DNA of 64,000 bases, from NCBI GenBank assembly GCA_028522875.1, contig GCA_028522875.1_3659.1. The stretch is one strand, 5' to 3'. Below, piece after piece: positions 16,652-45,147 of the stretch. The stretch comes from a phage. Numbering within the stretch: position 1 is the first letter of the stretch; the number at the start of each line of letters is the position of its first letter. The notes under the pieces were generated by a model. It was not told the origin of the DNA. It was given only the letters and a program-made list of their open reading frames with translations, and did no database searches. The position numbers were made by a program, and so were the translations under genes.

Positions 16652-17119
16652 TTGCAAAACCTCCTTTGGCGTGATAAAATAATCCACATGGGGAATAATA
16701 TGCCACAGGAAGAAATGATTTCCTACGAAATCATCTACGAGCCTGACACTAAAGATGCTCACGGTGAGTGGATGAGTAAAGACACCATCAAAAAGGCTAA
16801 AGATAATTGGGACGCAGCATACGCCGCAGGCCTAGTTTCTGAAAACCTTTTCCACTTGACCTCTACAGATGCTTTCACTATTGAAAAGACGTGGATTCAA
16901 GAAGAGTTTGATGTTGTAGTAATTGGTACTGAGCAGGTCATCAAGGCTGGCTCTTGGGTTGCTAAAGTTAAATACAATAATCCTGAATTATGGGAAGCTA
17001 AGAAGGCTGGCATTGTTGGTGGCCTAAGCATTCAGGCAACAGGTAATGTTGATGAAGAGACGGGCGAAATTACCAATGTAAATTTCGGGATCAGTGTTGT
17101 AGAAGAGGGCAATGAATAA
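16652..17119 (+). CDS. head morphogenesis protein (function unknown; start uncertain, alternative ATG 16688/16699)
   Basis: ORF between portal and scaffold; track start is TTG. Confidence 0.3.
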   Translation: MQNLLWRDKIIHMGNNMPQEEMISYEIIYEPDTKDAHGEWMSKDTIKKAKDNWDAAYAAGLVSENLFHLTSTDAFTIEKTWIQEEFDVVVIGTEQVIKAGSWVAKVKYNNPELWEAKKAGIVGGLSIQATGNVDEETGEITNVNFGISVVEEGNE

Positions 17120-18099
17120 TGTCTGAAAAAACAATCACTATTAAAGAGAAGGGTATTGCCCTGTGCCATAAGGCGCAAGGATATAGCGCTAACAATCGGC
17201 CTGTATCTCTTTTAATGAAGAGCGATCTTAAGCCTGAGCAGTTAACAGACGATATTGTTAAGGCACTTCGCCAAGTTACTGTGGAGCTCAGTTTTGAAGA
17301 ATACCTGCGTCGTTTTTTCGATATGTGGTATGACGATGCTAAGGCACTGGCTCACCTGCTTGGGTTCGAGATTGAGGAAGAAGCTTGGGCAAAAGAACAC
17401 CCAGATTGGGAGTGGGCACAGGCTGATGCAGAGGCTTGTGTGCAGTGGTTAGAAGAACGTTGTGATAACGTAACCATTCACAAAGCTGCTAAAGAAGGTA
17501 AAGATTTAAGTATTGTTGACCAATACACTCTGTTGAAAACCCAACAAGTTTTTGAGCAGATGACCGCTGATCTCTTCGATGAAGAAGGGAAACTTATTAA
17601 AGCGGCGCAGGAAACCACAGAAGAAGTTGTTACAGACGCTGTGGACAATGTTGATAAATCCGCAAATACCGAGGAGAATCCGGTGGAAGACGTAACCAAG
17701 TCTCAAGAGTACCTGGACCTGCTGAAACAGTTCGAAGAACTGAAAGCTACCAATGAAAAGGCTGAAGAAATCATCAAGGCTCAGGTAGAAGTTGAAAAAG
17801 CTAAAATGCTGGAAAAAGCTCAGGCGTTAAGCTTCACCACTGAAGAAGACCACGCATCTCTGGTCGAATTCATGCTGGATAAAGCTAACGCTCCTGTTGT
17901 TGAATTGCTGGAAAAAGCTCAAGCTCGTATTGCTGAACTGGAAGCTAAAGTTGAAAAAGCTAAAGAAGAGTTCGCAACCACCGAGCAAGGCAAAGATGGT
18001 GATGTCGTAGTAGATGACATTGCTAAATCTGCTGAAGATATTATTGCTGAAAACGTCGCTAAAGCTCTGGCTCGTGCACGTAAAGAATCTAATAAATAA
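17119..18099 (+). CDS. putative scaffolding protein
   Basis: 326 aa, Glu/Lys/Ala-rich with long predicted coiled coils (KAEEIIKAQVEVEKAKMLEKAQA...ELEAKVEKAKEE); precedes capsid genes; optimal codons. Confidence 0.55.
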   Translation: MSEKTITIKEKGIALCHKAQGYSANNRPVSLLMKSDLKPEQLTDDIVKALRQVTVELSFEEYLRRFFDMWYDDAKALAHLLGFEIEEEAWAKEHPDWEWAQADAEACVQWLEERCDNVTIHKAAKEGKDLSIVDQYTLLKTQQVFEQMTADLFDEEGKLIKAAQETTEEVVTDAVDNVDKSANTEENPVEDVTKSQEYLDLLKQFEELKATNEKAEEIIKAQVEVEKAKMLEKAQALSFTTEEDHASLVEFMLDKANAPVVELLEKAQARIAELEAKVEKAKEEFATTEQGKDGDVVVDDIAKSAEDIIAENVAKALARARKESNK

Positions 18100-21168: not shown

Positions 21169-21197
21169 TTGCTTTTGATGTATCTTTGTGGTAAAAT
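21169..21197 (+). promoter_or_regulatory. promoter TTGCTT-N17-TAAAAT with TGg extended -10
   Basis: -35 TTGCTT 21169-21174, -10 TAAAAT 21192-21197 preceded by TGG. Confidence 0.45.
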
Positions 21198-21215
21198 ACA
21201 TTAGTGAGGGATATA

Positions 21216-22738: not shown

Positions 22739-24115
22739 ATGCCATATTTAGATAAAGTGGTAGATGTTACAGTTAACCTCGGAACCCAGCCTATTGACAC
22801 TGTAGGTTTCGAAACTCCCCTGTTCATCGCTATCCACAATAACTTTACTGAGCGAGCTCGCGTATATGCGGAGCTGGATCAGATGGTGGAAGATGGTTTC
22901 GCACAAGGCTCTGCAGCGTATGAGTTTGCAGCAAAAGCTTTTGGTGGTGTATTCCCTCCACAATACGTTATGATCGGCAGACAGGCCAAAGAAAAGACCA
23001 CTGTAGATTTTAAAGGTATTGCTGCCGCAGCTGATACCGATGTCGTAATGACTATTGCAAAAGGTGACTACAATACTGCCTTGATAGTCCCTATCTCTGG
23101 TGGAACAGGGGCAACTCAGATCGCAGAGGCAATGAAGGAAAAAATTGAGGCTGATGATAGCTTAGACGGTATCACCGTGCAGGCCGACGAAGGTGTTATC
23201 ACCATCACTGGTGATTGTACTGTTGGTTATCATACTGGTAATTATACGATCAAAAACATTGCCAATAGTGAAAAACCTTCTACCGTGATCGACAAGATCA
23301 ACGCTGAGCAGGATAATTGGTACTTCTTGTGCCATGAAGACCACACAGATATTGAGGCATGTGCTAAGTGGGCTCAGGCTAACTACAAACTGCATGTCTA
23401 CTCTACTGCAGAAGATGTTACTGGTAAAGACAGCAACATTGCCACTAAACTGAAAGCTGCAAAATATGACAGTGTTGGTATGTACGATCCTCGCGCCGAC
23501 AAAGACTTCCCAGAGGGCGGTATTATCGGAGCTATGGCATCCAACGATCCGTCTTACGGCGACAGCTTACACTTAAAACAGATACCTGGTGTTCTTGCAC
23601 CATCCCTGACCTTGACCCAGCGCATGGCGATTTGGGAGAACAATATTAACTTCTACAGAACAATCAACGGTGTTGGTGCTTTCTGGGAAGGTAAATGTGC
23701 CTCTGGTCAGTATGCAGATGCTATCCGATTCGCTCACTGGGTTAAGTTTAGATCTGAAGAGTCCATGTTTGGATATATGCACCGCCGATCTAATATGGGC
23801 CTGAGCATGAAGATGTCTGATGATGATCTTCCGGTTATTAAGTCTGTCCTGATGAACAACCCAATCAACACTGGCATTAAGAATGGTGCGATCCTGACAG
23901 GTTTCGACGAAGACAATAATGTATTCTACGACCCGATCATCACAGTTCCTAAACGTGCAGAAATTCCAACTAATCAGTTGGCTGCTCGTGTTCTGGAAGG
24001 TGTGAAAGTAGAACTGGTGTATAATAACGCCCTGCACTTCGTTCGTATCCGGATCAACGTCCTTCTGGACAAAGTTGGTTCTAAATCCACCAATGCTGTT
24101 GCAATGACTGAATAA
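22739..24115 (+). CDS. major tail protein, tail sheath-like (contractile-tail assignment tentative)
   Basis: 458 aa; strong AAGAGGAAA RBS; optimal codon usage; followed by 157-aa tube-size gene, chaperone pair and tape measure. Confidence 0.45.
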   Translation: MPYLDKVVDVTVNLGTQPIDTVGFETPLFIAIHNNFTERARVYAELDQMVEDGFAQGSAAYEFAAKAFGGVFPPQYVMIGRQAKEKTTVDFKGIAAAADTDVVMTIAKGDYNTALIVPISGGTGATQIAEAMKEKIEADDSLDGITVQADEGVITITGDCTVGYHTGNYTIKNIANSEKPSTVIDKINAEQDNWYFLCHEDHTDIEACAKWAQANYKLHVYSTAEDVTGKDSNIATKLKAAKYDSVGMYDPRADKDFPEGGIIGAMASNDPSYGDSLHLKQIPGVLAPSLTLTQRMAIWENNINFYRTINGVGAFWEGKCASGQYADAIRFAHWVKFRSEESMFGYMHRRSNMGLSMKMSDDDLPVIKSVLMNNPINTGIKNGAILTGFDEDNNVFYDPIITVPKRAEIPTNQLAARVLEGVKVELVYNNALHFVRIRINVLLDKVGSKSTNAVAMTE

Positions 24116-24125
24116 GGAAGCCTAG

Positions 24126-24599
24126 ATGGAAACTCAAATTTTAACTCCTTATGCGTATGACCCTAAAAAGGTCAAACTGTATCTGATGCAGCAGCGTGTC
24201 ACTGGCTTCGCTGCTGACACCAAGATTGTTGTTTCAAGAAACGAAGACAACATTTATCCTCACGTCGGTGTGGATGGTGAAATGTCTGCGGCTCTGTCCC
24301 GTAACCAATCTGGTGTTATGACTGTGTCTTTGCAGAACACTTCTGTATGGAACGCTTACCTTTCTGACTGGCAGAAACAGGCATCGATTACTGGCCTGGT
24401 ATTCTTCCCGGTTCTGCTGGAAGGTAGCCAGGGCCCCGGTATTTCCACAGTCGGTTGGATCCAGAAACAGCCTGACCTGACTTACGGAACAGAAGTAGGT
24501 CAACTGGACTGGGATATCGGTATTCTGGATGCATGGCTCAACCGTGATAACATTACTGGTGCTCTCACTGGCCTCGCAGGTCTTGCAGGTATTATCTAA
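24126..24599 (+). CDS. putative tail tube protein
   Basis: 157 aa; AAGGAAG RBS; position between sheath-like gene and chaperone; followed by terminator. Confidence 0.4.
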   Translation: METQILTPYAYDPKKVKLYLMQQRVTGFAADTKIVVSRNEDNIYPHVGVDGEMSAALSRNQSGVMTVSLQNTSVWNAYLSDWQKQASITGLVFFPVLLEGSQGPGISTVGWIQKQPDLTYGTEVGQLDWDIGILDAWLNRDNITGALTGLAGLAGII

Positions 24600-24614: not shown

Positions 24615-24649
24615 TAAGCCTCACCTTAGGGTGGGGCTTTTTGCTTTTT
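24615..24649 (+). terminator. intrinsic terminator after tail tube gene
   Basis: AAGCCTCACC-TTAG-GGTGGGGCTT followed by TTTGCTTTTT. Confidence 0.65.
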
Positions 24650-24690: not shown

Positions 24691-24719
24691 TTGACAATGC
24701 ACCATAATCATGGTAAAAT
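24691..24719 (+). promoter_or_regulatory. promoter TTGACA-N17-TAAAAT with TGg extended -10, inside tail module
   Basis: -35 TTGACA 24691-24696, -10 TAAAAT 24714-24719 preceded by TGG; 44 nt upstream of chaperone ATG. Confidence 0.5.
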
Positions 24720-24762
24720 ACACAAATATGGTGCACAACATGACTAATAAGGATGCTATAAA

Positions 24763-25236
24763 ATGGCTATAAACTTTAGACCTACAACAGAGATTGATCT
24801 AGCAGGGCACAACTTTGTGATCACCCACTGGGGACCGATGAAAGCAATGAAAAACATGCCTAAAATCGGTAAGATTGTGGCTGTTCCGCTAGGTGCTATT
24901 GGTGGATCTATTATCTCTGGTGGTCAGAATATGGCAGAGGTCCTTCCTACTGCTCTGGCTTACCTGTTCCAAGAACTTGATGATAGCTCTATTGAAGAGT
25001 TATTTAAAATCTTGTTCGAAGATATTACCGTAGATGGTGTGGATAAGCTTAACCCAGATGTTGTGTTTGCAGGGCATCTGCTGGAGATGATTAAGCTGGC
25101 AGGTAAGGTTCTGGAGGTTAACTACGGCTGTTTTTTCACACAAGACGGTTTAGGAAGCCTTCTGGAGATGTTACAGCAGATGGGTATGATTCAGCAGGTG
25201 AACAACCTGGATCAGACTCCGGAAGAGCAGGAATAA
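24763..25236 (+). CDS. tail assembly chaperone (G-like)
   Basis: 157 aa acidic protein directly upstream of tape measure; contains slippery heptamer near 3' end. Confidence 0.6.
   Translation: MAINFRPTTEIDLAGHNFVITHWGPMKAMKNMPKIGKIVAVPLGAIGGSIISGGQNMAEVLPTALAYLFQELDDSSIEELFKILFEDITVDGVDKLNPDVVFAGHLLEMIKLAGKVLEVNYGCFFTQDGLGSLLEMLQQMGMIQQVNNLDQTPEEQE
25131..25137 (+). other. -1 programmed ribosomal frameshift slippery site T_TTT_TTC
   Basis: Heptamer in X_XXY_YYZ register of the chaperone frame (codons TGT TTT TTC); the -1 frame is open from 25122 to stop at 25496. Confidence 0.6.
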
Positions 25237-25496
25237 GCAAGGTTGTTGTGAGGGCCAGTGAGTGGGCAGCCAAGAACAGTTCACTCAACTGGTTCGACTT
25301 TCTTTGGTGCAGAGTGCTCAAGAATTTCAAAGGGGAAAATTTTGAATCGCTAAATCTTGCAGATATGGCGTATTTCCTGAAGCTCTGTGAGTATCTTGAT
25401 ATCGAAGAATTCCTAGATACCGTCCAAAACAGGGAAATGGAGCGGGAGCAGAAGGCTGCCGCAGCTGCTGCGAAAGCTAAGCGCAGGAGAGGATAA
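25137..25496 (+). CDS. frameshift extension of tail assembly chaperone (GT-like C-terminal part)
   Basis: -1 frame ORF overlapping 3' end of chaperone gene and continuing 260 nt beyond its stop; classic G/GT arrangement upstream of tape measure. Confidence 0.5.
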   Translation, partial: HTRRFRKPSGDVTADGYDSAGEQPGSDSGRAGISKVVVRASEWAAKNSSLNWFDFLWCRVLKNFKGENFESLNLADMAYFLKLCEYLDIEEFLDTVQNREMEREQKAAAAAAKAKRRRG

Positions 25497-25501
25497 TCTA
25501 A

Positions 25502-25538
25502 GGGCCGGATTCCTTTTCTGGGATCTGGCCCTTTTTAT
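25502..25538 (+). terminator. hairpin/terminator-like element between chaperone and tape-measure genes
   Basis: GGGCCGGAT...ATCTGGCCC 9-bp stem (one G-U) followed by TTTTTATT. Confidence 0.45.
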
Positions 25539-25550
25539 TATGAGGAAACC

Positions 25551-27887
25551 ATGGCTACAAACAAAATAGTTGCCACAACAGTCAACAAGATTGGCTTTGA
25601 GATAGAGAACTCCTCCTACAAAAAAGCTGTAGAGAAAATTCGCAGTATTGGGAGGGAGTTCAGGAAACTGGGCGAGGATTTTAACTCAGCCAACCCCATG
25701 AGTAGATGGCAGGCGGTGGCTGTTAAAACCCAGCAAACAATGCAGAGGGTTGCCAGACAGCAATCTCAGGCAAATGCTAAACTGCACAGAGAGAGCGTAG
25801 CACAGGCCAAGAAAGAGGCTGCAGTAAGGGCTGCAATAGAACGTAGGGAGAATGCGAGACGTAAACAAGCTGTAGGTAATCTTACCGCTAAAAATCCAGA
25901 AATGGCTAGGATGCGTAAGTTCTACCAGCAGCAAGCTAAAGAGGCCAAAAAGGCTGCCAAATCTGCACCAGTGTCTTACGGTGGTTATAAGGCACCTAAG
26001 GCAAGAGTTTTGGCTAATGCCAAATCTTTCAAATATATCCCCGGTAACCCTAATATGGGTGGTGTGGCTTCCGACCCTAACCTTGTGAAAGCTCAGACAG
26101 CCGCTATGAATCGTTATCATAGACAGCTAAGAAGAGACAGTAAAGCTGGTATGGATAACAGGCTTATGTCGGATCGTGAGGCAAGGAGAACCCACCTCTA
26201 CAACTCCGCGATAAGACTTTCTGCCAAGTATGGGGCCGGATTCCGTGGAAGCTTGCCAGGATACTCAGAGTTAGAGTCCAGATTTGCTCGCGGGGAGATG
26301 AAGAAGTCAACCTTTAACGCCCACCTGTCAGCGCTGCAGTCTGGGTTTAAAAGCGCCACCAGTCAAACGCTTACACTAGGCGATGCCATGAGAGACCTAC
26401 GTAGATCTGTTATTAATGCAACAGCTGCGTATACGGCTTTTTCTGGATTTACTGCTGTTAACAGATCCGGTCACATGATGGAGGGTGCAAGTGCTGCTCT
26501 TACTGCTGTTACTGGAGATCCAAACAAAGCCAACAGTGAGGTTGCGTTTGTCCAGCAAGAGGCTATGCGTCTTGGTTTTGATCTCAAATCTGGTCTTCAA
26601 GGTTACGCCCAGATGGCGGTAAACGCCAAAAACCAGATGACAAATCAGGAGGTTCATGAGCTGTTCTCTGCATACTCCCAGTATGCTGCTGCTTATGGTG
26701 CTGATGAGGTAAAATATCAGCGCGGTATCATGGCAATACAACAAATGCTAGGCAAGGGACAAGTAATGTCCGAAGAACTGAAGCAACAACTTGCTGAAGC
26801 ATTGCCTGGTGCATACGAACCTTTTATCAAGGCCACCAAAGAGGCTTTTGGTCTTTCTGAGCTCTCCATGGATCAGTTCATGGACATGATGAAGAAAGGT
26901 GAGGTTAAGACAGCCAAGATCATGAAGTATGTGGCTAAGTACATGAACGAGGCATCTGCAGCTGGTTATGAAAGAATGCAGAAGTCTAACGTGCTGGCAG
27001 AAAACAGACTGAAAACCTTCATCGAACTGTCTCGTCAGAAACTGTTCACCCGTTGGGCAGATGAATTGACAGAGTTCTACTACACCCTAATCCGCACAGG
27101 TGAGACTCTGCAATTTGTGTGGGATGCCTCTGGTGATTTTGTTAGCGGGTTTGTGAGGGGTCTTAACTGGGTAGTTGGTGAACTAAACAACACTATAGTT
27201 AAGATCCGCATGTTTTTCCTTGAATGGGGAATTAAATGGGGATTCATAACAGCTAAGACGAAGGAATATTCTGAAGAGCTTCATGACACCTTTAGCTATG
27301 CTAAATGGGCAGGGTTTGCTGCTGCCATCATGCTGGTCGTCAACGCTCTAACAAAAGGTTTTGTCATGGCATCCATGCTTGTAAAAACCTTTAAATTCCT
27401 TAACTCTCTAAGAGGTGCAGCTGGAGCAGCAGGTGCCGCTACTGCAGAAGGATCTGGTGGTGGCGCTCCGGCAGGAAAAGGTGGGGGTGGCCTCAAGACA
27501 CCTGGTGGCAAAGTTGGTCTGCTCGGTAAGCTGGGCATTATCGGTACAATACTAAGCGCCGGGGAATTATTTAATGACCGTTACAACCCACTAAGTGAAA
27601 GAAATCAGCAGCTGGATACTATCAGCGATATGATTCGCAAAGATATCATATCGGGAGGTAACGGGTTTGTTAATCCTTTGGACACCTTACCAGGTGGGAC
27701 TCTTCCGTTGCCAGGTGGCCCCGGTTTTGCTTCTCAATTAAGAACTATGGAAATGCTACCTTTAGAGATCAGTGATGGGAAAATCACGATTTCAATAGAT
27801 GAGGGTGAGTTTAACAAAATATTTGATGCAAAACTTGAGTGGGAGAACAATAAAGATATCAACTTCATGTCTACCGACCTTTGGTAA
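25551..27887 (+). CDS. tail tape measure protein
   Basis: 778 aa; position after G/GT chaperone; long helical/coiled-coil-like N-terminal half, hydrophobic segments, Gly-rich stretch GAAGAAGAATAEGSGGGAPAGKGGGG. Confidence 0.75.
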   Translation: MATNKIVATTVNKIGFEIENSSYKKAVEKIRSIGREFRKLGEDFNSANPMSRWQAVAVKTQQTMQRVARQQSQANAKLHRESVAQAKKEAAVRAAIERRENARRKQAVGNLTAKNPEMARMRKFYQQQAKEAKKAAKSAPVSYGGYKAPKARVLANAKSFKYIPGNPNMGGVASDPNLVKAQTAAMNRYHRQLRRDSKAGMDNRLMSDREARRTHLYNSAIRLSAKYGAGFRGSLPGYSELESRFARGEMKKSTFNAHLSALQSGFKSATSQTLTLGDAMRDLRRSVINATAAYTAFSGFTAVNRSGHMMEGASAALTAVTGDPNKANSEVAFVQQEAMRLGFDLKSGLQGYAQMAVNAKNQMTNQEVHELFSAYSQYAAAYGADEVKYQRGIMAIQQMLGKGQVMSEELKQQLAEALPGAYEPFIKATKEAFGLSELSMDQFMDMMKKGEVKTAKIMKYVAKYMNEASAAGYERMQKSNVLAENRLKTFIELSRQKLFTRWADELTEFYYTLIRTGETLQFVWDASGDFVSGFVRGLNWVVGELNNTIVKIRMFFLEWGIKWGFITAKTKEYSEELHDTFSYAKWAGFAAAIMLVVNALTKGFVMASMLVKTFKFLNSLRGAAGAAGAATAEGSGGGAPAGKGGGGLKTPGGKVGLLGKLGIIGTILSAGELFNDRYNPLSERNQQLDTISDMIRKDIISGGNGFVNPLDTLPGGTLPLPGGPGFASQLRTMEMLPLEISDGKITISIDEGEFNKIFDAKLEWENNKDINFMSTDLW

Positions 27888-27898
27888 TAAACTGTGCA

Positions 27899-27922
27899 GG
27901 GGGCTCCGGCCCCCTTTATTTT
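27899..27922 (+). terminator. intrinsic terminator after tape measure gene
   Basis: GGGGGC-TCCG-GCCCCC followed by TTTATTTT. Confidence 0.65.
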
Positions 27923-41014: not shown

Positions 41015-41440
41015 ATGAAGGCAAAACCACGGTGTGTGGATTGGCAAACCAAACTTTTAGAAGTTATTAACGAAGAGTCTGATAAGGTATTTGAGTGGGG
41101 AATTAGCGATTGCTGCACTTTTGCAGCTAAGTGTATTGATGCACAGTACGGTACAAACTTTATCATGGAGTTTGAGGGAGAATATAAGACAGAAATTGAA
41201 AGCAGGAGATTGTGCATTAGGAAATTTGGGACAACTTACTTGCCATCAATTTTTGATAATTTTTTGGAAAGAAGGGATTCAAAAAAGCAGGTTCAGAGGG
41301 GAGATGTTGTAATATTTACTGGTAAAAATGGACCTACAGCCGGAATTTGGTGGGGAGGAATGGTGGTATCTAAAGGTAAGAAAGGCCTTGTATGGATAGA
41401 CTTTTCCGATATTGAAGTTTTAGATGTTTGGGGGTTATAA
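41015..41440 (+). CDS. small tail protein with Cys-containing motif (141 aa)
   Basis: GGGAGG RBS; WGISDCCTFAAKCI segment; position before large fibre-like gene. Confidence 0.3.
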   Translation: MKAKPRCVDWQTKLLEVINEESDKVFEWGISDCCTFAAKCIDAQYGTNFIMEFEGEYKTEIESRRLCIRKFGTTYLPSIFDNFLERRDSKKQVQRGDVVIFTGKNGPTAGIWWGGMVVSKGKKGLVWIDFSDIEVLDVWGL

Positions 41441-45085: not shown

Positions 45086-45114
45086 TTGACTATTGTTACA
45101 AAATTTGGTAAAAT
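45086..45114 (+). promoter_or_regulatory. promoter TTGACT-N17-TAAAAT with TGg extended -10
   Basis: -35 TTGACT 45086-45091, -10 TAAAAT 45109-45114 preceded by TGG. Confidence 0.5.
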
Positions 45115-45147
45115 ACCTTGTAGAGATTTTCATACCGGAGGAGTGAC

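What the first reader, a model, noticed from the sequence alone, without database searches (positions are those of the whole stretch)
24763..25538. Canonical -1 frameshift site in the tail chaperone, plus a hairpin/terminator before the tape-measure gene
The heptamer T_TTT_TTC (25131-25137) is in the correct register of the chaperone frame, and the -1 frame stays open for a further 360 nt, matching the conserved G/GT chaperone arrangement. A 9-bp hairpin with T-run (25502-25538) sits between the chaperone and tape-measure genes and may attenuate transcription to set stoichiometry.
Basis: partly seen in the sequence, partly recalled or inferred. Interest (0 to 1): 0.4.

Follow-up and report, generated by a model that had tools for sequence, protein, structure and literature searches.

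The report
Tail chaperone frameshift plus conserved terminator
This rV5-like coliphage makes its tail assembly chaperone in a short and a long form by a programmed backward ribosome slip, and a conserved terminator hairpin follows before the tape-measure gene; both are real but ordinary phage features.

Summary
The window is a Vequintavirus (rV5-like E. coli myophage, 99% identical to LL12/rV5). T_TTT_TTC (25131-25137) lies in register in the 157-aa tail assembly chaperone gene (24763-25236; Pfam PF21822). The -1 frame is open from 25122 to 25496, which predicts a 244-aa fusion.

Comparison makes chance unlikely. All 12 GenBank lineages and 31 IMG/VR loci, down to 28% identity, keep an in-register slippery heptamer at the homologous codon. 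It is usually TTTTTTC, once CCCTTTT and once GGGAAAG. All keep a -1 ORF running 73-97 codons past the chaperone stop, and none has a conserved start codon for the conserved C-terminal domain. I found no conserved downstream stimulatory structure. A GGAGG lies 13 nt upstream and is only partly conserved.

It is conserved across Vequintavirinae with compensatory changes. It is already published as rV5 terminator t050.

The frameshift is not annotated in any of the 13 related multi-ORF records inspected. It matches the GTTTTT site recently described in related families. Verdict: a new member of a known kind, of low interest beyond correcting annotations. Attenuation of tape-measure transcription is plausible but untested.

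The parts
24616..24644 (+). Intrinsic terminator after the tail tube gene (rV5 t052); upstream boundary of the chaperone cassette
   Evidence: 10-bp GC-rich stem plus T-run. -22 kcal/mol, z = -4.8. Listed in rV5 Table S4.
24691..24719 (+). Promoter P51: TTGACA, 17 nt, TG-extended TAAAAT. Contains the rV5 'late' motif TGGTAAAATA (24711-24720).
   Evidence: Best promoter match in 20-32 kb, 11 of 12. Annotated as P51 in rV5. Motif enrichment; motif described in PMC3606486.
24763..25236 (+). Short chaperone product (G-like, TAC-N), 157 aa
   Evidence: ORF. Pfam PF21822 Phage_TAC_15, 83 bits against a cut-off of 22; phrog_3840 at 6.5e-69. rV5 ORF51.
25113..25117 (+). Shine-Dalgarno-like GGAGG, 13 nt 5' of the slip site; possible frameshift stimulator
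   Evidence: Position. GAGG(T) is kept in many lineages but not all: GGAGA, GAAGA or GAAGT in Seunavirus, Mydovirus and Certrevirus. A stimulatory role is inferred, not shown.
25131..25137 (+). Slippery heptamer T_TTT_TTC, the site of the -1 shift
   Evidence: In register. Conserved in register in 41 of the 43 related loci; the other two carry CCCTTTT and GGGAAAG. H_HH.U_UU.Y motifs are among the most efficient in E. coli (PMC4066793).
24763..25496 (+). Long chaperone product (GT-like, TAC-NC), 244 aa: join(24763..25137,25137..25496). G domain, a 35-45 aa Ser/Gly/Pro/Asp-rich linker, then a conserved C-terminal domain of about 75 aa.
   Evidence: Fusion translations and alignment of 12 lineages. 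C-terminal part matches phrog_10409 at 3.6e-50. Constraint on the -1 frame R-F motif just after the slip site.
25248..25496 (+). The mechanical 82-aa ORF (GTG start) inside the -1 frame. This is the part usually annotated as a separate hypothetical protein; rV5 ORF50 is drawn from CTG 25128.
   Evidence: The GTG is not conserved in other genera.
25500..25541 (+). Intrinsic terminator (rV5 t050) between the chaperone and tape-measure genes
   Evidence: Conserved structure with 3 of 10 pairs showing compensatory changes and none broken across 11 Vequintavirinae sequences. Annotated in rV5.
25551..27887 (+). Tape measure protein gene, 778 aa, with RBS GAGGA at 25544-25548. No promoter of its own downstream of the terminator.
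   Evidence: PF20155 TMP_3; phrog_5255 at E = 0. Only 17 nt separate the hairpin from the ATG. Followed by a further terminator at 27898-27915.

Best explanation
This is the tail assembly chaperone cassette of an rV5-like myophage.

Most ribosomes translating 24763-25236 stop at TAA 25234-25236 and make the 157-aa chaperone. At U_UUU_UUC (25131-25137) a minority slip back one base. The P- and A-site tRNA-Phe re-pair on UUU UUU, and the ribosome continues in the -1 frame to 25496. The result is a 244-aa protein with the same N-terminal chaperone domain, a flexible linker and a conserved C-terminal domain.

By analogy with lambda G/GT and P2 E/E+E', the shared N-domain would coat the tape measure protein. 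The extra C-domain would recruit the tail tube and initiate tail polymerisation, with the slip frequency fixing the ratio of the two forms.

The slip appears to depend mainly on the heptamer itself. No conserved 3' structure is present. An upstream GGAGG may help.

The cassette has its own strong promoter (P51) and ends in a strong intrinsic terminator 17 nt before the tape-measure start. Tape-measure mRNA can therefore arise only by read-through, which would keep it less abundant than chaperone mRNA.

Shown here: sequence features, gene identities and conservation. Inferred: that the slip occurs, its frequency, the domain functions and partial termination.
For: Identity and context. The window is 99% identical to Vequintavirus genomes. 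The gene order is sheath, tube, chaperone, tape measure.

Register and open -1 frame. This is the only one of 24 in-register heptamers in the module followed by a long -1 ORF.

Conservation. The arrangement is kept in 12 GenBank lineages spanning Vequintavirus, Seunavirus, Mydovirus, Certrevirus, Stephanstirmvirinae, Plateaulakevirus, Barbavirus and KLEP7. It is also kept in 31 IMG/VR loci at 28-99% identity. Every one has an in-register heptamer at the homologous codon and a -1 ORF 73-97 codons beyond the G stop. Two lineages use different valid heptamers, C_CCT_TTT and G_GGA_AAG, which argues for tRNA slippage rather than a T-run-specific process.

Synonymous sites are frozen. The codons are always xxT TTT TTC, although the window's codon usage gives only about 0.27 for this arrangement given Cys-Phe-Phe.

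The -1 frame is under selection right after the slip site. Arg-Phe (CGG/AGG TTT) is kept while the zero-frame residue over the Arg codon varies (D, S, G, K, R, I), and the Gly codon is always GGT.

No conserved start codon exists for the C-domain. The first ATG/GTG/TTG falls at -1-frame codon 85 of 127 in KpS8, 65 in CR3, 64 in KLEP7, 60 in L033 and 68 in L037, all inside the conserved domain.

Escherichia phage CL1 (Felixounavirus) has T7 at the homologous site and encodes the fused form as one 213-aa ORF.

Literature. H_HH.U_UU.Y heptamers are among the most efficient in E. coli (PMC4066793). The same GTTTTT site is proposed as a -1 frameshift site in Vandenendeviridae and Andersonviridae (PMC12846349) and is annotated in phage Moogle (PMC4319497).

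Terminator. -26.1 kcal/mol, z = -4.3. Structure is conserved with compensatory changes. It is annotated in rV5. There is no room for a promoter before the tape-measure gene.
Against: There is no protein-level evidence. The rV5 paper does not mention a frameshift or a chaperone.

No significant or conserved downstream stimulatory structure was found. The 63 nt after the site give z = +0.77, and the alignment consensus is -1.07 kcal/mol. Efficiency may therefore be low.

The upstream GGAGG overlaps conserved Glu-Val codons and is absent in several genera, so its role is uncertain.

In this window a GTG (25248) with a weak AAGG 5 nt upstream lies 12 nt after the G stop. Some independent or re-initiated synthesis of an 82-aa protein cannot be excluded.

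The IMG/VR loci were retrieved with a peptide pattern that includes the Phe-Phe site. Amino-acid conservation there is partly by construction, although the codon choice is not.

The lineages are related, so counts of loci are not independent events.

Stephanstirmvirinae lack the pre-tape-measure terminator, so it is not essential to the chaperone mechanism.
Confidence: 0.82

Rival explanations
1. The downstream ORF is a separate gene. An 82-aa protein would be made by independent initiation, or by termination-reinitiation, at GTG 25248. The heptamer would be incidental.
For: GTG 25248 lies 12 nt after the G stop, with AAGG 5 nt upstream. Several database records annotate a separate hypothetical protein here, and phrog_10409 is an 82-residue profile.
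Against: The GTG is not conserved; the homologous codon encodes L, Q, E, S or K in other genera. In KpS8, CR3, KLEP7, L033 and L037 the first possible start lies deep inside the conserved domain. Conservation (I-S-K-V-V) extends upstream of the GTG. The -1 frame is open back to the heptamer in all 43 loci and shows selection (R-F) inside the overlap. Annotated starts differ from record to record.
Confidence: 0.06
2. The long form arises by transcriptional slippage. RNA polymerase would add one U in the T6 run, giving a subpopulation of U7 mRNAs that encode the fusion in one frame.
For: The site is a homopolymer run. A natural T7 variant (phage CL1) encodes the fused protein as one ORF, which shows that the +1-nt outcome is viable.
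Against: Six T is short for efficient RNA polymerase slippage; from general knowledge, runs of 8-9 or more are normally needed. KLEP7 has only T5 within C_CCT_TTT, and Barba18A uses G_GGA_AAG with no long run. The strict in-register placement in all loci is needed for tRNA re-pairing but not for polymerase slippage.
Confidence: 0.07
3. The hairpin at 25500-25533 is mainly an mRNA 3'-end stabiliser or processing element, or a full terminator bypassed by phage antitermination. It would not be a simple leaky attenuator that sets the chaperone to tape-measure ratio.
For: The stem is very stable (-26 kcal/mol), which would normally terminate efficiently. Similar hairpins follow the tube gene and the tape-measure gene, suggesting a general architecture of stabilised transcript ends. 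Stephanstirmvirinae do without it.
Against: The tape-measure gene has no promoter of its own (17-nt gap), so some read-through must occur. The U-tract is interrupted (UUUUUAUUAU), which is compatible with incomplete termination. The two roles are not mutually exclusive.
Confidence: 0.3
4. Chance: an ordinary Phe-Phe dipeptide and a fortuitously open alternative frame, with no recoding.
For: In-register slippery heptamers are common; there are 24 in the structural module.
Against: The 121-codon open -1 frame is unique among them. It encodes a domain conserved down to about 29% identity relatives. Heptamer codon choice is frozen.
Confidence: 0.02

Closest known systems
Lambda gpG/gpGT tail assembly chaperones (Xu, Hendrix & Duda 2004, conserved translational frameshift in dsDNA phage tail assembly genes; cited in PMC8785237)
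   Same: The position is immediately upstream of the tape-measure gene. [quoted passage not shown] No RNA stimulator is obviously required. One relative (Barba18A) even uses lambda's own heptamer, G_GGA_AAG.
   Different: This is a myophage with a sheath. The heptamer is U_UUU_UUC. There is no detectable sequence similarity to lambda G; the Pfam family is PF21822, not the lambda family. An intrinsic terminator and a dedicated promoter bracket the cassette. Product ratio was not measured.
P2 gpE/gpE+E' (Christie et al. 2002; recalled from memory, not checked here)
   Same: It is a myophage tail chaperone pair between the tube and tape-measure genes, made by a -1 shift on a T-rich heptamer (T_TTT_TTG in P2).
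   Different: The protein family and the last base of the heptamer differ. P2 has no terminator before its tape-measure gene, as far as I recall.
Conserved GTTTTT -1 frameshift site of the TAC genes of Vandenendeviridae (Pakpunavirus) and Andersonviridae (Felix O1-like, Moogle): PMC12846349 and PMC4319497
   Same: The sequence motif is the same (G/C-TTTTTT) near the 3' end of TAC-N. The downstream 'hypothetical protein' is really the C-terminal part of TAC-NC. These are evolutionarily related myophage clades. The evidence is of the same comparative kind.
   Different: Those papers analysed Vandenendeviridae and Andersonviridae, not Vequintavirinae or Stephanstirmvirinae. Here the site is shown in those subfamilies as well. 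None of the 13 related records with separate ORFs that I inspected annotates a joined CDS.
E. coli dnaX gamma/tau -1 frameshift
   Same: A heptamer of identical-base triplets with an upstream Shine-Dalgarno-like element about 10-14 nt 5' of it. Here GGAGG lies 13 nt upstream.
   Different: dnaX also has a strong 3' stem-loop and yields a truncated product. Here no 3' structure is present and the product is extended. The SD-like element is not conserved in all relatives.
rV5 terminator t050 and promoter P51 (Kropinski et al. 2013, PMC3606486, Table S4; GenBank DQ832317 / NC_011041)
   Same: The sequence is the same (GGGCCGGATTCCTTTTCTGGGATCTGGCCC TTTTTATTAT, -24.2 kcal/mol in their table) and so is the position.
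   Different: Nothing differs in the element itself. The covariation support across genera and the read-through argument for the tape-measure gene are added here.

Membership tests
G/GT-type phage tail assembly chaperone with programmed -1 frameshift | The gene pair lies between the major tail/tube gene and the tape measure gene | tested here: met
   Tube 24126-24599 (PF11681, phrog_280), chaperone 24763-25236, tape measure 25551-27887 (PF20155, phrog_5255)..
G/GT-type phage tail assembly chaperone with programmed -1 frameshift | The second ORF overlaps the 3' end of the first in the -1 frame and extends well beyond its stop | tested here: met
   The -1 frame is open 25122-25496. It overlaps G by 115 nt and runs 85-86 codons past the G stop.
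G/GT-type phage tail assembly chaperone with programmed -1 frameshift | A slippery heptamer X_XXY_YYZ in zero-frame register within the overlap | tested here: met
   T_TTT_TTC at 25131-25137, with codons TTT 25132-34 and TTC 25135-37.
G/GT-type phage tail assembly chaperone with programmed -1 frameshift | The arrangement (heptamer plus open -1 frame) is conserved in diverged relatives despite sequence divergence | tested here: met
   43 of 43 related loci down to 28% identity. Alternative heptamers occur in 2 lineages.
G/GT-type phage tail assembly chaperone with programmed -1 frameshift | The downstream ORF lacks its own conserved translation start | tested here: met
   There is no conserved start codon across lineages, and several have none before the middle of the conserved domain. 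The window itself has a lineage-specific GTG with a weak SD, so minor independent initiation is not excluded.
G/GT-type phage tail assembly chaperone with programmed -1 frameshift | The N-terminal ORF belongs to a recognised tail assembly chaperone family | tested here: met
   PF21822 Phage_TAC_15 at 83 bits (cut-off 22); phrog_3840 'tail assembly chaperone' at 6.5e-69. No solved homologue by sequence.
G/GT-type phage tail assembly chaperone with programmed -1 frameshift | Two protein products detected in a fixed ratio, both required for tail assembly | not testable with these tools
   This needs proteomics or genetics. The rV5 paper reports none for these ORFs.
Intrinsic (rho-independent) transcription terminator | A stable GC-rich stem-loop | tested here: met
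   14-bp stem (12-bp GC-rich core), -26.1 kcal/mol, z = -4.3.
Intrinsic (rho-independent) transcription terminator | A U-rich tract immediately 3' of the stem | tested here: met
   TTTTTATTAT follows the GC core. T-runs are also present in relatives.
Intrinsic (rho-independent) transcription terminator | The structure, rather than the sequence, is conserved among relatives | tested here: met
   11 Vequintavirinae sequences; 10 pairs, none broken apart from one gap cell; 3 pairs with compensatory double changes.
Intrinsic (rho-independent) transcription terminator | Transcripts end there, and termination efficiency is measured | not testable with these tools
   No transcriptomic data for rV5-like phages were found.
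dnaX-like stimulated -1 frameshift signal (5' SD-like element plus 3' stem-loop) | An SD-like sequence about 10-14 nt upstream of the heptamer | tested here: inconclusive
   GGAGG at 25113-25117, 13 nt upstream. GAGG(T) is kept in many lineages but is replaced by GGAGA, GAAGA or GAAGT in others, and it overlaps conserved Glu-Val codons.
dnaX-like stimulated -1 frameshift signal (5' SD-like element plus 3' stem-loop) | A stable stem-loop or pseudoknot 5-9 nt downstream | tested here: not met
   The 63 nt downstream fold no better than shuffles (z = +0.77). The only notable helix starts about 20 nt downstream (z = -1.4). The alignment consensus is -1.07 kcal/mol. Rfam gives nothing.

The most novel reading that the evidence does not exclude
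The chaperone genes form a self-contained expression module that sets the G : GT : tape-measure ratio at three levels. First, a dedicated strong promoter (P51), whose -10 region is bracketed by a perfect 9-bp inverted repeat that could be an operator. Second, a structure-independent -1 frameshift boosted by an upstream Shine-Dalgarno-like GGAGG. Third, a conserved leaky terminator that is the only route of transcription into the tape-measure gene. If so, Vequintavirinae would be a clean natural system for studying how transcriptional attenuation and recoding combine to fix assembly stoichiometry.
Probability: 0.25. Interest if true: 0.35.

Novelty: new member of a known kind. Interest (0 to 1): 0.2.

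Why it matters
The value is mostly practical. In more than 100 deposited Vequintavirus genomes and their relatives, the -1 ORF is annotated as a separate 'hypothetical protein' with inconsistent starts, or is not annotated at all. It should be joined to the chaperone gene as a programmed-frameshift product.

The result also extends the conserved (G/C)TTTTTT slip site, recently described for Felix O1-like and PAK_P1-like phages, to Vequintavirinae, Stephanstirmvirinae and several unclassified myophages. This supports an ancient, shared recoding signal in that superclade.

The covarying terminator that gates the tape-measure gene is a modest but testable example of how phages may tune structural-protein ratios. 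None of this would surprise a specialist.

Tried and rejected
1. Downstream stimulatory RNA. I folded 25138-25200 and 25131-25240 and ran RNAalifold on 10 Vequintavirinae sequences. Nothing was significant or conserved. Rfam gave only sub-threshold noise.

2. Structure of the fusion. Single-sequence AlphaFold2 gave pLDDT 37 and pTM 0.22, which is unusable, so I ran no fold search. PDB sequence search gave no hits.

3. Independent start at GTG 25248, or at CTG 25128 as drawn for rV5 ORF50. Neither codon is conserved, so both are rejected as the general mechanism.

4. Literature. I searched for a described frameshift in rV5 or Vequintavirus and for transcriptomics of rV5-like phages and found none. 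The nearest is PMC12846349, on related families.

5. Other in-register heptamers in the structural module. None has a long -1 ORF.

6. Operator motif. I checked whether the inverted-repeat half-site TGCACCATA recurs. It is not enriched: 25 matches against 17.7 expected with one mismatch.
Full report
**What the window is.**
The 1.5-kb region around the finding is 98-99% identical to more than 100 Vequintavirus genomes (rV5, LL12, V18, Murica and others). In rV5 the corresponding genes are:
- ORF53, tail sheath
- ORF52, tube-like virion protein
- ORF51, 'tail assembly chaperone'
- ORF50, 'hypothetical protein', overlapping ORF51
- ORF49, tape measure

The same record carries a sigma-70 promoter P51 before ORF51 and rho-independent terminators after ORF50 and ORF49.

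Profile searches on the window's own ORFs agree:
- 22739-24115: sheath (phrog_205)
- 24126-24599: PF11681 / phrog_280
- 24763-25236: PF21822 Phage_TAC_15 (83 bits, cut-off 22) and phrog_3840
- 25551-27887: PF20155 / phrog_5255, tape measure
- then Dit-like, plug and hub proteins

**Checking the observation.**
TTTTTTC is at 25131-25137. The chaperone frame reads TGT|TTT|TTC, so the heptamer is X_XXY_YYZ in register. The -1 frame has a TAA at 25119-25121 and is then open to 25496, which is 121 codons from the heptamer. The predicted fusion, join(24763..25137,25137..25496), is 244 aa.

In-register slippery heptamers are not rare in themselves. There are 24 in the 35 + strand genes of the structural module. 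This is the only one followed by a long -1 ORF: 121 codons, against 24 for the next longest. The heptamer sequence is also depleted in the window, with 10 copies against 18.5 expected.

The hairpin is real and larger than described. It has 14 pairs (12-bp GC-rich core 25502-25531) and a 6-nt loop, followed by TTTTTATTAT. Free energy is -26.1 kcal/mol and z = -4.3.

**Comparative test of the frameshift.**
A tblastn search with the hypothetical fusion found 491 phage records. In 354 of them the match covered at least 80% of the query, as two pieces in two frames.

I examined 12 lineages from GenBank: Vequintavirus, Seunavirus GAP31, Mydovirus KpS8, A73, Certrevirus CR3 and PcCB7V, KLEP7, Justusliebigvirus alia, KP2025, SF1-1, Plateaulakevirus 4L372D and Barbavirus Barba18A. 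I also examined 31 IMG/VR loci at 28-99% identity.

Every one has an in-register slippery heptamer at the homologous codon, just after the conserved N-Y-G-C/P motif. Every one also has a -1 ORF that opens a few codons upstream and runs 73-97 codons past the chaperone stop. Forty-one loci use T_TTT_TTC, and the phi92-like group has C_CCT_TTT_TTC. KLEP7 has C_CCT_TTT. Barba18A has G_GGA_AAG, which is lambda's own signal.

The IMG/VR scan used a peptide pattern covering the Phe-Phe site. Amino-acid conservation there is therefore partly built in, but codon choice is not. The codons are always xxT TTT TTC, whereas the window's codon usage predicts this only about 27% of the time for Cys-Phe-Phe.

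**Evidence that the -1 frame is translated from the slip site.**
The fusion proteins align as three parts: the chaperone domain, a poorly conserved Ser/Gly/Pro/Asp-rich linker of variable length, and a well conserved C-terminal domain of about 75 aa (...ISKVVxRAxEYAxKNSSLxWFDYL...LDIxxF...). That domain is phrog_10409, 'unknown function'.

There is no conserved start codon in front of that domain. The window's GTG 25248 corresponds to Leu, Gln, Glu, Ser or Lys codons elsewhere. In KpS8, CR3, KLEP7, L033 and L037 the first ATG/GTG/TTG in the -1 frame lies at codon 60-85, inside the domain. Annotated starts for the 'hypothetical protein' differ from record to record, or the ORF is not annotated at all.

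Immediately after the heptamer, still inside the overlap, the -1 frame keeps Arg-Phe (CGG or AGG, then TTT) in 19 of 20 lineages. The zero-frame residue over the Arg codon varies (D, S, G, K, R, I), and the zero-frame Gly codon is always GGT. This is the pattern expected if the -1 frame is under selection there.

Escherichia phage CL1, a Felixounavirus, has seven T at the homologous position and encodes the fused form as a single 213-aa ORF annotated 'tape measure chaperone'.

**Mechanism.**
U_UUU_UUC and C_CCU_UUU both belong to the H_HH.U_UU.Y class. Sharma et al. list this class among the most efficient -1 motifs in E. coli, and they conclude that the motif itself is the primary determinant (PMC4066793).

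I found no downstream stimulator. The 63 nt after the site fold no better than shuffles (z = +0.77). The only notable helix in 110 nt begins about 20 nt downstream (z = -1.4). RNAalifold on ten Vequintavirinae sequences gives -1.07 kcal/mol.

Upstream, GGAGG (25113-25117) lies 13 nt 5' of the heptamer. From memory, that spacing is in the range that stimulates -1 shifting in dnaX. However, it overlaps conserved Glu-Val codons and is degraded in Seunavirus, Mydovirus and Certrevirus, so I treat it as a possible lineage-specific enhancer only.

Transcriptional slippage is a weaker rival. The run is short, and two lineages have heptamers without a long homopolymer.

The functions of the two domains are inferred from lambda G/GT, not tested. 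The N-domain would bind the tape measure, and the C-domain would recruit the tube.

**The terminator.**
The hairpin is the published rV5 terminator t050 (GGGCCGGATTCCTTTTCTGGGATCTGGCCC TTTTTATTAT, -24.2 kcal/mol in Table S4 of PMC3606486).

A hairpin plus T-run occupies the same position, between the -1 ORF stop and the tape-measure RBS, in Vequintavirus, Seunavirus, Mydovirus, A73 and Certrevirus. Analogous ones occur in KLEP7, 4L372D and some IMG/VR lineages. In an alignment of 11 Vequintavirinae sequences, all 10 consensus pairs are maintained and 3 show compensatory double changes. The phi92-like Stephanstirmvirinae lack it, with a 12-20 nt gap, and have a terminator between the tube and chaperone genes instead.

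In the window, the chaperone cassette is bracketed by terminator t052 (24616-24644) and t050. It has its own promoter P51 (24691-24719; 11 of 12 match with an extended -10), which also contains the rV5 'late' motif TGGTAAAATA.

Only 17 nt separate the hairpin from the tape-measure ATG. Tape-measure transcription must therefore read through t050. That makes a leaky-attenuator role plausible, but it is untested. An mRNA-stabilising role is not excluded and is compatible with attenuation.

**Comparison with what is known.**
The arrangement meets every testable criterion of the G/GT class (Xu, Hendrix & Duda 2004; cited in PMC8785237). It resembles P2 E/E+E' as a myophage example, which I recall from memory.

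The closest described case is the conserved GTTTTT -1 site in the TAC genes of Vandenendeviridae and Andersonviridae (PMC12846349, December 2025), already annotated in Felix O1-like phage Moogle in 2015. That work treats Vequintavirinae and Stephanstirmvirinae as related clades but did not analyse their TAC locus.

The rV5 genome paper mentions neither a frameshift nor a chaperone. None of the 13 related records with separate ORFs that I inspected carries a joined CDS.

**Verdict.**
The frameshift here is a new, un-annotated member of a well-known kind. The terminator and promoter are already known. Interest is low (0.2), and the main value is annotation correction.

**Dead ends.**
- Single-sequence AlphaFold2 of the fusion was unusable (pLDDT 37).
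- The PDB sequence search was empty.
- Rfam gave only noise.
- No transcriptomic data for rV5-like phages were found.

Noticed in passing
window 24691-24735: Promoter P51 (TTGACA, 17 nt, TG-TAAAAT) has its -10 region bracketed by a perfect 9-bp inverted repeat: TGCACCATA at 24698-24706 and TATGGTGCA at 24727-24735. This could be an operator for a dimeric regulator. The half-site is not enriched elsewhere in the window (25 matches against 17.7 expected with one mismatch).
   Followed up: partly
window 21189-21198, 24711-24720, 45106-45115: There are three exact copies of TGGTAAAATA, the rV5 'late promoter-like' motif of Kropinski et al. 2013, all on the + strand ahead of structural genes. With one mismatch there are 21 matches against 6.7 expected, and 0 of 100 shuffles reach this number.
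   Followed up: partly
L013 (Escherichia phage CL1, OK040806.1) 1830-1836: This Felixounavirus has seven T at the homologous slip site, so the fused chaperone is one 213-aa ORF. It is either a genuine 'fusion-only' variant or a homopolymer sequencing error. If genuine, the phage would make no short form unless it shifts the other way.
   Followed up: no
window 41260-41287, in ORF 41015-41440: Two in-register slippery heptamers lie 21 nt apart, T_TTT_TTG (41260) and A_AAA_AAG (41281). They are in a 141-aa protein of unknown function (phrog_2134), just upstream of the 1204-aa central tail fibre-like gene. The -1 frame stops at 41325, so a slip would give a truncated product, as in dnaX. Conservation was not checked.
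   Followed up: no
window 17313-17319, in ORF 17119-18099: This is a second in-register T_TTT_TTC, but the -1 frame closes after 6 codons. It is probably incidental.
   Followed up: partly
phage records MG065652, MG065655, MG065635, MG065653: Records labelled 'Campylobacter phage C11/C2/C12/C14' are 98% identical to rV5-like coliphages over this region. This suggests mislabelled or contaminant assemblies.
   Followed up: no
window 24616-24644, 25500-25541, 27898-27920: The tape-measure gene is flanked by intrinsic terminators on both sides and has no promoter of its own. The tube gene is also followed by a terminator. The tail genes are thus cut into short units by hairpins, which may give graded expression.
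   Followed up: partly
L012 (Rheinheimera phage Barba18A) 2126-2764: An HNH endonuclease gene on the opposite strand is inserted between the chaperone -1 ORF and the tape-measure gene. The gap is 741 nt, against 54 nt here.
   Followed up: no
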